Shown here piece after piece: positions 32,603-40,038 of a stretch of 64,000 bases of DNA (position 1 is the stretch's first letter; every line of letters starts with the position of its first letter). A program made the position numbers and the translations under genes. Origin of the DNA: Escherichia coli (GTDB lineage Bacteria > Pseudomonadota > Gammaproteobacteria > Enterobacterales > Enterobacteriaceae); NCBI RefSeq assembly GCF_009931435.1, contig NZ_CP043414.1; one strand, written 5' to 3'. The notes below the pieces were generated by a model. That model was not told where the DNA came from. It worked only from the letters and a program-made list of their open reading frames with translations, and did no database searches.

Positions 32603-32684
32603 TGCCCGATGCGCTGCGCTTATCGGGCCTACATGTCGCACGAACTATGTAGGCCGGATAAGGCGTTCACGCCGCATCCGGCAC
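32603..32684. repeat. REP/BIME palindromic unit cluster
   Basis: Two inverted REP-like units (gcccgatgcgctgcgcttatcgggcctaca and gtaggccggataaggcgttcacgccgcatccggca) between higA and ascB. Confidence 0.8.
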
Positions 32685-32690
32685 GTTTGC

Positions 32691-34115
32691 TTACTCTAAA
32701 TCTTCACCGTTACTGGCAATCACTTTTTTATACCACCAGAACGATTTCTTACGCGTGCGCGCCAGCGTGCCGTTGCCTGCATCGTCACGGTCTACATAGA
32801 CAAAACCGTAGCGTTTGCTCATTTCACCCGTTGACGCGGAAACTAAATCAATACAGCCCCAGGTGGTGTAGCCCATCAGCGGAATGCCGTCTGCAATCGC
32901 TTCGCCCATTGCGCGGATATGTTCGCGTAAATAGCTGATGCGATAGTCGTCGTTAATCTCGCCATTGGCAGCAAATTCATCTTTTGCGCCCAGGCCGTTT
33001 TCCACCAGAAACAGCGGCTTCTGATAACGGTCATACATCATGTTCATAGTGATACGCAGACCGAGTGGATCAATACCCCAGCCCCAGTCGCTCACCTGTA
33101 GATACGGGTTACGCAGCGATTTCACTACGTTCGCCGCACTGCTGTTGTTGGCGTTCATCTCCGCCGAGGCGCAGCGCGAGGCGTAATAGCTGAAAGAGAC
33201 AAAATCGACGGTGTTTTTCAGGATTTCATCATCGCCCGGTGCTTTGTCGATGGTTACCCCTTTTTCGCGGAATACGCGGGCAGAGTAAGCCGGATACGCG
33301 CCCCGCGCCTGCACATCGATAAAAAACAGGTTTTCCCTGTCTTTCTCCAGCGCTGCCCAGACATCTTCCGGCTTGCAACTGTAAGGGTAGAAGTTGCCGC
33401 CCGCCAGCATACAGCCCACCTGATTTTGCGGGTTAACCTCATGAGCGATTTTGGTGGCTAGCGCACTGGCAATCAGTTGGTGATGCGCAGCCTGATATTT
33501 CACCTGATCCTGATTTTCCCCTTCTTCAAACACCAGACCCGCGCCGGAGAACGGGCTATGCAACATAATGTTGATTTCATTGAAGGTGAGCCAGTATTTC
33601 ACCAGGCCATCAAATGCTTCAAAGCAGGTCCGGGCGTAGCGGCTGAAAAACTCCACCAGCTTGCGGTTACGCCAGGAGCCATATTCAGTGACCAGATGCA
33701 TCGGCACGTCGAAGTGACACAACGTGACCAGCGGTTCGATACCGTACTTTTTACACTCTTCAAAAACCGTGCGGTAAAAAGCAATGCCCTGCTGGTTGGG
33801 CGTCAGTTCATCGCCCTGCGGGAAGAGGCGGCTCCAGGCAATCGAGGTACGAAAAACCTTGAATCCCATCTCTGCCATCAGGGCGATATCTTCTTTATAA
33901 CGATGATAAAAATCCGTCGCCTCATGGCTGGGATAAAACTCGTCATTGCGCAACTGAAAACGTTTTTCCAGCCCCAGTTTCACCGCCATTCGATGTTCGC
34001 CGTGCGGGATCATATCGACCGTGGTCAGCCCTTTGCCACCTTCACGGTACGCACCTTCAGATTGGTTGGCGGCAAGCGCGCCGCCCCATAAAAAATCTTG
34101 CGGAAATACTGACAT
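32691..34115 (-). CDS. ascB: 6-phospho-beta-glucosidase (GH1)
   Basis: Start at [13 protein letters not shown]; GH1 signatures (…LVTEYGSW…, …FLVENGLGA…). Confidence 0.93.
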
Positions 34116-34123
34116 TTTCATCC

Positions 34124-35581
34124 TCAATTAAGACTTACTTCTTTGGCGACGGTCGGTTGTACGCTCTGATGCTTTCGCGCCTGGGCAGCCGCTTCCTCAA
34201 CAGGAATATCCTCAAAGCCGAGCAACAGTGTGAGGATAAACGACAGCACGACCGCCAGCGCCATGACGGCGAACACCCAGACGATGCTCATTGGATTCGC
34301 CGGATCGAAGAACTGCACGCTGGTAAATAATCCCGGCGCTGCCATTGAGTGGCTGGCAAGCCCCGCCATACCGGCAACCGCGCCGCAAATAAAACCGCTG
34401 ATAAGACTGGCGATAAGCGGACGTTTCAGGCGGATCGCCACGCCGTATAACGCGGGTTCGGAAATCCCCGCCATAATGGCTGATGCCGCCGCAGCCAGCG
34501 CCGTCTGGCGCAGTTCCGGGTTTTTCGTTTTCCACGCCACCGCCAGCGATGAACCACCCAGCGACAGGTTAGCGCCGATTTCTGACGGCATGACCATCCC
34601 TTCTTTGCCGGTTTCGGCAATAGTTTGAATGATGGTTGGCGTAAAGACGCGGTGCATTCCAGTCATTACCAGCAGAGGCCACAGTGCGCCCATAATGGCG
34701 ACTGAAAGCCAGCCCAGATAACCATGAATGGTGTAAACCAGCGCCGAAATGGCGCTACCGATCCAGATACCAATCGGGCCAATCAGCAGGATTGCCAGCG
34801 GTGCGGCAATCAACACAATCAGCATCGGCTTGAGGAAGTTTTTCGTCACCGCTGGCGTAATGCTGTCCACCCAGCGTTCGATATATGACAGGCACCAGGT
34901 CATCACCAGCGCCGGGATCACTGTGTAGGTGTATTTCACCGCGGTGACCGGAATCAGGGCAAATTCAACATGTTCACCCTGGGCTGCTTTCGCCATCAGC
35001 TCAATAAAACTCGGATGTACCAGCACACCCGCAATGGCAATCGCCAGCGACATATTGGTTTTAAATTTAATGGCGGCAGAAGCAGCGACCATCAGCGGCA
35101 GGAAGAAGAAAGCACCATCACCAATCACATTGAGAATGGTTAAGGTCGGCGATCCTTTTGTCAGCACGCCGCTCATCTCGAGGATCATCGCCAGCAGTTT
35201 GACCATCGATCCGCCGATGATCGCCGGGATCAGCGGTGACATGGTGCCGATCAGCGCATCCAGGATCCCCGCACCAATGCGACGTAGCGTGAGTTTGGGT
35301 TTCCCCACGGGCTGCGTGGGCTGCATATCTCCAGGTAACAAGCTGACAACTTCCTGAAAAGCCTGCGAAACCGTATTACCTATAATCACCTGACACTGGT
35401 TGTCACTACGTACCACACCGAGCACGCCGGAGATAGTTTTTAACGTTGGGCTGTCGATCAGTGCATCATCTTTGATAACAAAGCGCAAACGCGTCATACA
35501 GTGCGTGACTGCCGAGATGTTATCAACGCCGCCCAGTGCCGCTATCACCGAGCGTGCCAGCGCCGCATAATTTTTGGCCAT
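34124..35581 (-). CDS. ascF: PTS arbutin/salicin/cellobiose-specific EIIBC component
   Basis: 485-aa ORF with N-terminal EIIB (…[10 protein letters not shown]…) and EIIC membrane domain. Confidence 0.93.
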
Positions 35582-37527: not shown

Positions 37528-37679
37528 AAATCTTACAGAACTGTTCTGGCATCAAAGGAATTCCCGGAAATATTCGTAGAATACGGAGCAGGCGGTATCG
37601 CCAACCTGTGACTACCGGATGCGACGCGGTCGTGTCCGGCTGGGCGGGTTACGCAATTCATGATGGCGGGAATAACTCA

Positions 37680-39932
37680 ATGGCAAAAAACACATCTTGC
37701 GGTGTCCAACTGCGTATTCGTGGCAAAGTGCAGGGCGTCGGTTTTCGTCCCTTTGTCTGGCAACTGGCACAGCAATTAAATCTTCACGGCGATGTCTGTA
37801 ATGACGGCGATGGCGTAGAAGTCCGGCTGCTGGAAGACCCGGAAACGTTTCTTGTTCAATTGCATCAGGATTGTCCGCCGCTGGCGCGTATTGATAGCGT
37901 CGAATGTGAGCCGTTTATCTGGATGCAGCCGCCCACTGAGTTCATCATCCGCCAGAGTGCGGGCGGCGTCATGAATACGCAAATTGTTCCCGATGCCGCT
38001 ACTTGTCCTGCCTGTCTTGCCGAAATGAATACCCCAGGCGAACGGCGTTATCGTTATCCGTTTATCAACTGTACCCATTGCGGCCCGCGTTTCACCATTA
38101 TTCGCGCGATGCCTTACGACCGTCCATTTACCGTGATGGCGGCGTTTCCGCTATGTCCGGCCTGCGATAAAGAATATCGCGACCCGCTCGATCGTCGCTT
38201 CCACGCCCAGCCGGTGGCCTGCCCGGAGTGTGGCCCACATCTTGAATGGCTAAGTCATGGTGAACATGCGAAACAAGAGGCGGCATTACAGGCGGCTATC
38301 GCTCAGTTAAAAATGGGCAACATTGTCGCTATCAAAGGGATTGGCGGATTTCATCTCGCCTGCGATGCGCTTAACAGTAACGCGGTGGCGACACTACGGG
38401 CGCGCAAACATCGCCCGGCGAAACCGCTGGCGGTTATGTTGCCAACGGCAGAAGGTTTGCCCGACGCTGCCCGACAGTTGCTCACCACGCCCGCCGCGCC
38501 GATTGTACTGGTGGATAAAATATATGTTCCGGAACTTTGTGACGATATCGCCCCTGGCCTTAACGAAGTCGGGGTGATGTTGCCTGCGAATCCGCTCCAG
38601 CATTTGCTGTTACAGGAACTGCAATGCCCGCTGGTGATGACCTCCGGCAACCTGAGCGGTAAACCACCGGCTATCAGCAACGAACAGGCGCTGGAGGACT
38701 TGCAGGACATTGCCGACGGATTCTTGATTCATAACCGCGACATCGTGCAGCGGATGGATGATTCAGTGGTGCGCGAAAGTGGCGAAATGTTGCGCCGCTC
38801 GCGGGGGTATGTACCGGATGCGCTGGCTTTGCCTCCGGGCTTTAAAAATATTCCTCCTGTGCTGTGTCTCGGTGCGGATCTGAAAAATACCTTCTGTCTG
38901 GTGCGTGGTGAACAGGCGGTGTTGAGTCAACATTTGGGCGATTTAAGTGACGATGGCATTCAGATGCAGTGGCGCGAAGCGTTGCGTCTGATGCAAAACA
39001 TCTACGATTTTACCCCGCAATACGTTGTGCATGACGCGCATCCGGGCTATGTCTCCAGCCAGTGGGCGCGCGAAATGAATCTGCCGACGCAAACGGTGCT
39101 GCATCATCATGCTCATGCGGCGGCGTGTCTGGCAGAACATCACTGGCCGCTGGATGGCAGTGATGTCATTGCTTTGACGCTCGACGGTATTGGTATGGGC
39201 GAAAACGGCGCTTTATGGGGCGGCGAGTGCTTGCGGGTGAACTATCGCGAATGCCAGCACCTGGGTGGCTTGCCTGCGGTGGCGCTTCCGGGGGGCGATC
39301 TTGCGGCAAAGCAGCCGTGGCGAAACCTGCTGGCGCAGTGCCTGCGCTTTGTGCCGGAGTGGCAGAATTACCCTGAAGCGGCAAGTGTGCAACAGCAAAA
39401 CTGGAGCGTGCTGGCGCGGGCCATTGAGCGTGGAATTAACGCGCCGCTGGCGTCATCGTGCGGGCGTTTGTTCGATGCTGTGGCGGCGGCACTGGGCTGT
39501 GCGCCAGCCACGTTAAGTTATGAAGGTGAAGCGGCTTGCGCCCTCGAGGCGCTGGCGGCTTCATGCCAGGGAGTGACGCATCCGGTGACGATGCCGCTGG
39601 TGGACAATCAGCTGGATCTCGCCACTTTCTGGCAGCAGTGGCTGAACTGGCAGGCACCGGTTAATCAACGCGCGTGGGCATTTCATGATGCGCTGGCGCA
39701 GGGTTTTGCCGCGTTGATGCGTGAGCAGGCCACGATGCGTGGTATCACTACGCTGGTATTTAGCGGCGGGGTTATTCATAACCGTTTGCTGCGTGCACGT
39801 CTGGCGCATTATCTTGCTGATTTTACGTTGCTCTTCCCGCAGAGTTTACCTGCGGGGGATGGCGGGTTGTCTCTGGGGCAGGGGGTTATTGCTGCGGCCC
39901 GTTGGGTGGCGGGTGAAGCCCAGAACGGATAA
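37680..39932 (+). CDS. hypF: carbamoyltransferase HypF (hydrogenase maturation)
   Basis: Start at [25 protein letters not shown] (acylphosphatase domain), then zinc-finger CxxC pairs, YrdC-like and Kae1-like domains. Confidence 0.92.
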
Positions 39933-39953
39933 ACGTGTTGCATTTGGGCGCAG

Positions 39954-40038
39954 TGCCGGATGCGGCGTGAACGCCTTATCCGGCCTACACATGCGCTCCC
40001 CGTAGGTCGGATAAGACGCGCCAGCGTCGCATCCGACA
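39954..40038. repeat. REP/BIME palindromic unit cluster
   Basis: Inverted REP units tgccggatgcggcgtgaacgccttatccggcctaca and gtaggtcggataagacgcgccagcgtcgcatccgaca between hypF and norW. Confidence 0.8.

What the first reader, a model, noticed from the sequence alone, without database searches (positions are those of the whole stretch)
32603..40038. REP/BIME clusters at junctions between backbone and accessory DNA
REP palindromes occur at the higA-ascB junction (32603-32684) and the hypF-norW junction (39954-40038), plus a single REP-like palindrome in the srlD-gutM spacer (46519-46543). REP elements can mark recombination or insertion hotspots and modulate mRNA stability. The one bordering the higBA island may have been involved in its acquisition.
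Basis: partly seen in the sequence, partly recalled or inferred. Interest (0 to 1): 0.25.

Follow-up and report, generated by a model that had tools for sequence, protein, structure and literature searches.

The report
Ordinary REP/BIME repeats; IS621 landing site
These are ordinary E. coli REP palindromes sitting where they also sit in K-12 and in other genera; they did not mediate the higBA insertion, but one of them is a real landing site for the insertion sequence IS621.

Summary
The window (an E. coli chromosome) holds four canonical REP units in two inverted pairs: z1+y at 32604-32682 and y+z2 at 39955-40037. A fifth, decayed z1-like hairpin lies at 46515-46545.

- Neither pair marks a backbone/accessory junction. 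Both sit at the same places in K-12. The order hycI-[REP pair]-ascB...hypF-[REP]-norW recurs in other Escherichia species and in Citrobacter. The ascB-side pair also recurs in Pseudocitrobacter and Klebsiella indica.
The higBA module (31688-32587) is bounded by a 5-bp ACTGA direct repeat. Its right edge is 16 nt outside the REP, and its left edge has no REP.
- K-12's "empty" site is a deletion of an older gene (hyp251) between GGGATGT repeats.

The ascB-side pair is nevertheless a genuine hotspot for other events.
- Unit A contains ATCGGGCCTAC, the exact IS621 bridge-RNA target. IS621 sits in its CT core in at least 197 of 5,426 complete E. coli genomes.
- The linker between the two units is inverted relative to K-12.
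- Units come and go between strains.
- The asc deletion in E. whittamii ends exactly at the CCTAC tail.
- The hypF-norW array varies from 0 to 4 repeat units between strains.

All of this is known REP/BIME biology, so interest is low.

The parts
32604..32632 (+). REP unit A, z1-type (29 nt), iREP orientation on the + strand. It contains the IS621 target ATCGGGCCTAC at 32622-32632, with the CT core at 32629-32630.
   Evidence: The 29-nt length is that given for z1 in PMC8266576. IS621 is inserted at this CT in L009, L094, L095 and L096. The target sequence is from PMC11208160.
32633..32648 (.). 16-nt linker between the CTAC and GTAG tails. It is inverted relative to the K-12/ancestral orientation.
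   Evidence: 20 of 22 positions match the reverse complement of the K-12 linker, and the direct alignment is poor. E. albertii, Escherichia sp. E1V33 and E. coli E69 have the K-12 orientation.
32649..32682 (-). REP unit B, y-type (34 nt as delimited here). Its stem starts 8 nt after the ascB stop codon on the ascB mRNA strand.
   Evidence: It is absent in the single-REP alleles L005 and L008.
39955..39988 (+). REP unit C, y-type, identical in sequence to unit B. It lies 22 nt after the hypF stop codon.
40002..40037 (-). REP unit D, z2-type (36 nt as delimited here). It lies 21 nt after the norW stop codon on the norW mRNA strand.
   Evidence: In other strains this unit, together with a degenerate partner, forms the repeating unit of the ~98-bp tandem array.
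46515..46545 (-). Decayed z1-like REP in the srlD-gutM spacer. It is a perfect 13-bp-stem hairpin, the GTAG tail has become GTAT, and the AA-GC bulge has been corrected to paired bases.
   Evidence: K-12 has an intermediate state with one mismatch.
46558..46582 (-). Second, non-REP perfect hairpin (10-bp stem), 6 nt after the srlD stop codon.
   Evidence: -20.8 kcal/mol, z = -5.65.
31688..32587 (+). higBA module: promoter region, higB (31850-32161) and higA (32158-32577). It is flanked by the 5-bp direct repeat ACTGA at 31683-31687 and 32583-32587.
   Evidence: Pfam HigB_toxin scores 82 bits against a cut-off of 27, and HTH_3 scores 38 bits against 23.
30932..31687 (+). hyp251, a gene of unknown function. 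It is ancestral in Escherichia and is deleted in K-12 between GGGATGT repeats.
   Evidence: No Pfam or NCBIfam family matches.

Best explanation
These are ordinary members of the E. coli REP (palindromic unit) family.

What is there:
- A z1+y inverted pair in the higA/ascB convergent spacer.
- A y+z2 inverted pair (BIME-2 type) in the hypF/norW convergent spacer.
- A z1-derived hairpin in the srlD-gutM spacer that has lost both determinants needed by the REP transposase-like enzyme TnpA(REP).

History (shown): both pairs are long-term residents of these spacers and predate the hyp251/higBA variation. The higBA module inserted 16 nt to the left of the pair, between two copies of ACTGA, without using REP sequence.

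How they work, DNA level (shown by comparison, plus literature): the tails are recombination substrates. Unit A is an exact IS621 bridge-RNA target and is occupied in about 3.6% of complete genomes. Units and ~98-bp repeat units are gained and lost between strains. The linker has inverted. One asc deletion ends at the tail.

How they work, RNA level (inferred from position, folding and the REP literature, not tested here): the hairpins form stable 3' structures on the convergent transcripts. These would act as barriers to 3'-5' exonucleases and so stabilise the upstream mRNA.
- The y unit lies only 8 nt from the ascB stop codon. That is inside the 15-nt range in which REPs were reported to stall terminating ribosomes and lower translation.
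- The srl hairpins probably set differential stability between srlAEBD and gutM-srlR-gutQ.
For: Identity:
- Tail motif found 4 times against 0.04 expected.
- Imperfect hairpins.
- Unit lengths of 29, 34 and 36 nt against the published z1 29, y 35 and z2 37 nt, with a GTAG tail and an AA-GC bulge (PMC3333891).
- Sub-threshold Rfam hits to the REP-like naRNA4 model.

Residency:
- Same positions in K-12.
- The order hycI-REP pair-ascB...hypF-REP-norW recurs in other Escherichia species and in Citrobacter; the ascB-side pair also in Pseudocitrobacter and K. indica.

Island breakpoints outside the REP.

Hotspot behaviour:
- IS621 in 197 genomes, on four different left-flank haplotypes.
- Target ATCGGGCCTAC (PMC11208160).
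- Linker inversion, with roughly 1,967 genomes carrying this window's orientation and 3,277 the K-12 orientation.
- Unit loss and linker loss.
- hypF-norW array of 0, 1, 2 or 4 units.
- E. whittamii asc deletion corresponds to window 32634-36811.

RNA level:
- Fold z-scores.
- No intrinsic terminator in either spacer.
- A 7-9 nt gap between the ascB stop codon and the REP stem in six genera.
- The 15-nt rule of Liang et al. 2015, as summarised in PMC12306157.
Against: - No transcript, RNA half-life or translation data were available, so every RNA-level role is inference.
- Conserved stop-to-REP spacing could reflect common descent rather than selection.
- The 197 IS621 insertions may descend from few events spread by homologous recombination. 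I did not place them on a phylogeny.
- The allele frequencies come from identity bands and an even-step sample, not per-genome typing.
- The y/z1/z2 assignment rests on lengths given in the literature plus my memory of the consensus sequences, because the consensus figure was not readable.
Confidence: 0.88

Rival explanations
1. One reading: the REP pair next to higA mediated acquisition of the higBA island, by REP-REP recombination or by REP-targeted integration, and so marks an island boundary.
For: - The module's right edge is only 16 nt from unit A.
- All four higA-bearing alleles examined that have two REPs carry the derived, inverted linker.
- REPs at this locus are demonstrably recombinogenic.
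- The literature reports strain-specific loops associated with BIMEs (PMC1525189).
Against: - Neither breakpoint lies in REP sequence, and the left one has no REP at all.
- The junctions show a 5-bp ACTGA duplication instead.
- The REP pair is present at the same place in genomes and species that never had higBA.
- One higBA allele (L005) is linked to a single-REP allele and to a different left flank.
Confidence: 0.08
2. The hairpins are primarily transcription terminators for the convergent genes, and their REP-like sequence is incidental.
For: - They lie at the 3' ends of convergent transcription units.
- No other terminator-like site was found in the spacers.
- The structures are strong.
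Against: - No U-tract follows any of the stems.
- The sequences belong to a high-copy repeat family.
- About 15% of E. coli genomes replace the whole hypF-norW cluster with an unrelated palindrome.
Confidence: 0.1
3. The y units encode naRNA4-like nucleoid-associated noncoding RNAs.
For: Rfam naRNA4 (RF02564) matches at 39917-39985(-), 32652-32696(+) and 40005-40069(-), with E-values from 0.00026 to 0.0019.
Against: The scores of 37-41 bits are well below the 59.5-bit gathering score. The matches are what any y-type REP would give to a REP-like model.
Confidence: 0.05

Closest known systems
E. coli REP / palindromic units of types y, z1 and z2 (Gilson, Bachellier, Hofnung; Ton-Hoang et al. 2012, PMC3333891)
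   Same: 29-36-nt imperfect palindromes with a GTAG/CTAC tail and an AA-GC bulge. They are extragenic, high-copy and arranged as inverted REP/iREP pairs.
   Different: Units A and D carry compensatory stem changes relative to the consensus I recall (GCCCGAT..ATCGGGC and GTCGGAT..ATCCGAC). The srl element has lost the GTAG tail and the bulge.
BIME-2 (y+z2, short linker, variable tandem copy number)
   Same: The hypF-norW cluster is y+z2, tail-to-tail, with a 13-nt linker. Across strains it has 1, 2 or 4 repeat units with a ~98-bp period.
   Different: There is only one unit in this window. In the multi-copy alleles the inner y-position units are degenerate. Gyrase binding was not tested.
BIME-1 (z1+y, long L linker with an IHF site, single copy)
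   Same: The higA-ascB cluster is a single-copy z1+y pair.
   Different: The linker is only 16 nt and has no IHF consensus WATCAANNNNTTR. It is better called an atypical BIME.
IS621 (IS110 family) bridge-RNA-guided insertion into REPs (Choi et al. 2003; Durrant et al. 2024, PMC11208160)
   Same: Insertion is at the CT core of ATC(A/G)GGCCTAC, with CT on both junctions. Unit A equals the sequence encoded by the bridge RNA's target-binding loop.
   Different: No difference in kind. This is a natural occupied site, and the window itself carries the empty target.
REP-dependent mRNA stabilisation (the malE-malF paradigm) and translation control (Liang, Rudd & Deutscher 2015)
   Same: Position in 3' UTRs and in an intra-operon spacer, and a REP stem 8 nt from the ascB stop codon.
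   Different: No expression data here. The other three REP-flanked stop codons are 21-26 nt away, outside the 15-nt range.

Membership tests
E. coli REP (palindromic unit) | Imperfect palindrome of about 29-37 nt | tested here: met
   Units A-D are 29, 34, 34 and 36 nt, with 86% complementary arms for units B-D.
E. coli REP (palindromic unit) | Conserved GTAG (CTAC on the other strand) at the foot of the stem | tested here: met
   All four units end in CCTAC. The srl element has CATAC/GTAT, so it does not meet this feature.
E. coli REP (palindromic unit) | Two-base AA-GC mismatch (bulge) in the stem, required by TnpA(REP) | tested here: met
   GAT-GC...TT-ATC is present in units A-D (feature defined in PMC3333891 and PMC8266576). 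It is not met by the srl hairpin, which is 100% complementary.
E. coli REP (palindromic unit) | Extragenic and present in hundreds of copies per genome | tested here: met
   All units are intergenic.
BIME-2 | y and z2 in inverted orientation with a short linker, and a tandem copy number that varies between strains | tested here: met
   y+z2 with a 13-nt linker. There are 0, 1, 2 or 4 units in L012, the window/K-12, L010/L011 and L013 respectively.
BIME-2 | DNA gyrase binding and cleavage | not testable with these tools
   Needs biochemistry or ChIP.
BIME-1 | z1 and y separated by the long L linker, which carries an IHF site | tested here: not met
   The composition is z1+y, but the linker is 16 nt and has no IHF consensus.
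IS621 natural target | An 11-nt target ATCAGGCCTAC or ATCGGGCCTAC with a CT core | tested here: met
   32622-32632 is ATCGGGCCTAC. It is occupied in L009, L094, L095 and L096 with CT at both junctions. Units B and C have ATCCGGCCTAC and unit D has ATCCGACCTAC, which are mismatched.
Rfam naRNA4 (RF02564) | Score at or above the gathering threshold of 59.5 bits | tested here: not met
   The best score is 40.6 bits.
Intrinsic (Rho-independent) terminator | GC-rich stem followed by a U-tract | tested here: not met
   No such site overlaps the REP clusters.
HigBA type II toxin-antitoxin (neighbouring module) | A HigB_toxin domain followed by an HTH antitoxin, toxin gene first, with overlapping genes | tested here: met
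   PF09907 scores 82 bits (cut-off 27) and PF01381 scores 38 bits (cut-off 23). There is a 4-nt gene overlap at 32158-32161.

The most novel reading that the evidence does not exclude
The linker between the two inverted REP tails exists in E. coli as a common two-state inversion. Roughly 36% of genomes have this window's orientation and 60% the K-12/ancestral orientation. Only the derived orientation was seen next to IS621.

The most novel reading is that this flip is a natural footprint of a site-specific enzyme acting on two inverted REP tails. The enzyme could be the IS621 bridge recombinase or TnpA(REP). That would make it host DNA rearranged by a REP-directed recombinase, rather than passive template switching in a quasi-palindrome.
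Probability: 0.08. Interest if true: 0.5.

Novelty: already known. Interest (0 to 1): 0.17.

Why it matters
It matters little as a discovery. REP/BIME elements, their polymorphism, IS621 targeting and REP effects on mRNA are all established.

The value here is corrective and illustrative.
- Adjacency of a REP to a strain-variable segment is not evidence that the REP caused the variation.
- An "empty" reference site (K-12) can itself be a derived deletion.
- One small spacer can record several kinds of REP-associated change: IS621 capture, unit gain and loss, linker inversion and a deletion endpoint.

The exact IS621 target in unit A also predicts that strains with this window's linker orientation are susceptible to IS621 insertion here, while K-12-type strains (ATCGGGCCTTC) should be less so.

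Tried and rejected
- The K-12 RefSeq annotation gave no REP feature lines, so I could not use curated REP names.
- No paper text searched held the y/z1/z2 consensus sequences. Only their lengths and defining features were available.
- Coverage counts from short allele-specific queries did not separate the two linker orientations, because the alleles cross-match. I used identity bands instead.
- Searching plasmids for a close donor of the higBA module found only relatives at about 70-73% identity over the coding part. There is no donor context, so the insertion mechanism remains unknown beyond the ACTGA repeat.
- Pfam and NCBIfam gave nothing for hyp251.
- IHF-site and intrinsic-terminator readings were tested and rejected.
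- The idea that asc is the accessory segment in E. coli was rejected. It is ancestral across genera and present in the REP-less E. coli strain GF60, though it has been lost independently in E. albertii, E. whittamii, Escherichia sp. MOD1-EC7003 and Salmonella.
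Full report
**Context**

The window is an E. coli chromosome. It is 100% identical to strain 2020CK-00188 and about 95% identical to most other E. coli.

The annotated order is as follows (ORFs):
- hycI (30419-30889, +)
- a hypothetical 251-aa gene, here called hyp251 (30932-31687, +)
- higB (31850-32161, +)
- higA (32158-32577, +)
- ascB (32691-34115, -), then ascF, ascG, hydN
- hypF (ends 39932, +)
- norW (40059-41192, -), then norV, norR, gutQ, srlR
- gutM (46124-46483, -)
- srlD (46589-47368, -)

**Observation**

- The REP tail signature CTTATCNGRCCTAC occurs exactly four times in 64 kb. Shuffles give 0.04 expected.
- The four units form two inverted, tail-to-tail pairs. 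A (32604-32632, +, 29 nt) pairs with B (32649-32682, -, 34 nt). C (39955-39988, +, 34 nt, identical to B) pairs with D (40002-40037, -, 36 nt).
- The published unit lengths are z1 29 nt, y 35 nt and z2 37 nt, each with a GTAG tail and an AA-GC bulge (PMC8266576; PMC3333891). On that basis A is z1-like, B and C are y, and D is z2-like. The match of B and C to the y consensus is from my memory of the consensus, not from a tool.
- REP-containing queries hit a median of 38-39 places per genome, which is capped by the tool.
- Rfam gives only sub-threshold hits to the REP-like naRNA4 model.

The third feature is a perfect 13-bp-stem hairpin at 46517-46545.
- On the srl mRNA strand it reads GCCTGATGCGCTACGCGCATCAGGCATAC. 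It is z1-like in length and head.
- Its tail is CATAC rather than CCTAC, and the bulge positions are paired.
- K-12 has an intermediate state with one mismatch.
- Both features that TnpA(REP) needs are therefore gone (PMC3333891). I read this as a fossil REP kept as a hairpin.
- A second, unrelated perfect hairpin (46558-46582) lies 6 nt after the srlD stop codon.

**Are these backbone/accessory junctions?**

They are not.

K-12 has both REP pairs at the same positions.

I scanned one genome per species with HycI and annotated the loci with tblastn.
- hycI-[REP pair]-ascB-ascF-ascG-hydN-hypF-[REP]-norW recurs in other Escherichia species and in Citrobacter. The REP pair next to ascB also appears in Pseudocitrobacter and Klebsiella indica, and S. 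enterica subsp. arizonae has a REP pair between hypF and norW.
- Each genus carries its own REP sequence flavour in the hycI/ascB spacer.
- The asc operon is therefore ancestral here. It has been lost in Salmonella, some Citrobacter, E. albertii, E. whittamii and Escherichia sp. MOD1-EC7003.
- The REP stem sits 7-9 nt from the ascB stop codon in six genera.
- Some Enterobacter-group genomes have a different palindromic repeat in the same spacer.

The hycI-ascB interval is highly polymorphic. In total, 2,642 of 5,426 genomes have some island DNA and 747 have at least 80% of it.

Alleles fetched:
- full island
- hyp251 + higA, with higB deleted
- higBA only, with a different left flank
- hyp251 only
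- truncated hyp251 + higA
- internally deleted hyp251
- none (K-12)

Alignment shows three things.
- The higBA module is window 31688-32587. Sites without higBA read ...AATCAGAACTGATGGCAAAC..., and the filled site has ACTGA on both sides (31683-31687 and 32583-32587).
- The right edge is 16 nt left of the REP stem, and the left edge has no REP.
- K-12's 161-bp spacer equals a hyp251-only allele minus the gene, joined at a GGGATGT repeat. The same junction occurs in Escherichia sp. E1V33.

hyp251 is present in E. albertii, E. whittamii and Escherichia sp. MOD1-EC7003. Homologues at 63% identity follow hycI in Phytobacter and K. spallanzanii.

Plasmids hold only higBA relatives at about 70-73% identity, so no donor context was found.

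**What the REP pair does show**

1. IS621.
   - In the closest relative, RMDEC465 (98.4% identical), IS621 lies between higA and ascB.
   - The junctions read ...ATCGGGCCT|IS621|CTACATG..., which places the insertion at the CT core of unit A's tail.
   - Durrant et al. report ATCAGGCCTAC as the natural target and ATCGGGCCTAC as the sequence exactly encoded by the bridge RNA's target-binding loop (PMC11208160). The window has ATCGGGCCTAC at 32622-32632.
   - A junction query finds IS621 here in 197 of 5,426 genomes.
   - It occurs on four left-flank haplotypes: full island, higB-deleted island, and two kinds of hyp251-deleted spacer.
   - K-12 has ATCGGGCCTTC.
2. Linker inversion.
   - The window's linker matches the reverse complement of K-12's at 20 of 22 positions.
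   - The K-12 orientation is shared by E. albertii, Escherichia sp. E1V33 and E. coli E69, so it is ancestral.
   - By identity band, about 1,967 genomes have this window's orientation and about 3,277 the K-12 orientation. These numbers are approximate.
3. Unit turnover. Some alleles lack the y unit (L005, L008) and one lacks the linker (L006).
4. A deletion endpoint.
   - The E. whittamii asc deletion corresponds to window 32634-36811. It begins immediately after unit A's CCTAC, with 1 nt of microhomology.
   - The E. albertii deletion is different (32729-36845, inside ascB), and that of MOD1-EC7003 is different again.
5. The hypF-norW array. It has 0, 1, 2 or 4 repeat units with a ~98-bp period in different strains. 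About 15% of genomes have a REP-less spacer with another palindrome and an altered hypF C-terminus.

This matches the published description of BIME variability (PMC3333891).

**Likely function**

The RNA-level roles below are inferred, not shown.
- Both clusters lie between convergent genes. No intrinsic terminator is present.
- The transcripts fold strongly, either as two hairpins or as one long REP-iREP hairpin.
- The best-supported role is the classical one: 3' hairpins that block exonucleases and stabilise upstream mRNA.
- The distances from stop codon to stem are 8 nt for ascB, 26 nt for higA, 22 nt for hypF and 21 nt for norW. Only ascB falls inside the 15-nt range in which REPs were reported to stall terminating ribosomes (Liang et al. 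2015, as summarised in PMC12306157).
- The srl hairpins probably set different stability for srlAEBD and the downstream regulator genes.

**Verdict**

This is a correct observation of ordinary, already-known elements. The general remark about hotspots is borne out at this locus by IS621 and by REP turnover. The specific link to higBA acquisition and the "backbone/accessory junction" framing are not supported.

Noticed in passing
window 31850-32577; L004, L007: Many E. coli genomes keep the higA antitoxin but have lost the higB toxin and its promoter. In an even-step sample of island-bearing genomes, about half of the rows were such orphan-higA alleles, produced by at least two different deletions.
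   Followed up: partly
window 30932-31687: hyp251 has a signal-peptide-like N-terminus and matches no Pfam or NCBIfam family. It follows hycI in several Escherichia species, and homologues at 63% identity follow hycI in Phytobacter and K. spallanzanii. K-12 and Escherichia sp. E1V33 share the same deletion of it at a GGGATGT repeat.
   Followed up: partly
L012 / L097 (strain GF60), equivalent to window ~39900-40061: About 15% of E. coli genomes have a REP-less hypF-norW spacer. It carries a different palindrome (CCCCTCGCCC..GGGCGAGGG), and the replacement reaches into the last codons of hypF.
   Followed up: partly
window 46558-46582: There is a perfect 10-bp-stem non-REP hairpin 6 nt after the srlD stop codon, next to the decayed REP. 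Together the two make the srlD-gutM spacer fold at z = -8.6.
   Followed up: no
L019, L022, L033, L044, L048, L087 (hycI-ascB spacers): The REP stem lies 7-9 nt from the ascB stop codon in six genera, although each genus carries its own REP sequence variant. This suggests in-place turnover or concerted evolution of the repeat.
   Followed up: partly
L005 (strain VCSW5), hycI-higB interval: One higBA allele lacks hyp251 and has a different 163-bp upstream region starting right at the hycI stop codon. It shares only a 19-bp stretch (GTGTTTACATATTGTGAAC) with the window, which may be the higBA operator.
   Followed up: no
L018 (Escherichia sp. MOD1-EC7003), after hyp251: At the exact site where higBA sits in the window there is a 26-bp insert (CTTTTCACGACGAAGAATCAGTCAGA) between two CTGA copies. 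It could be a scar or a precursor of the module, and its origin was not resolved.
   Followed up: no
whole window: The window is only about 93-96% identical to most E. coli at these loci and has two close relatives in 5,426 complete genomes. The strain therefore belongs to a divergent Escherichia lineage labelled E. coli.
   Followed up: no
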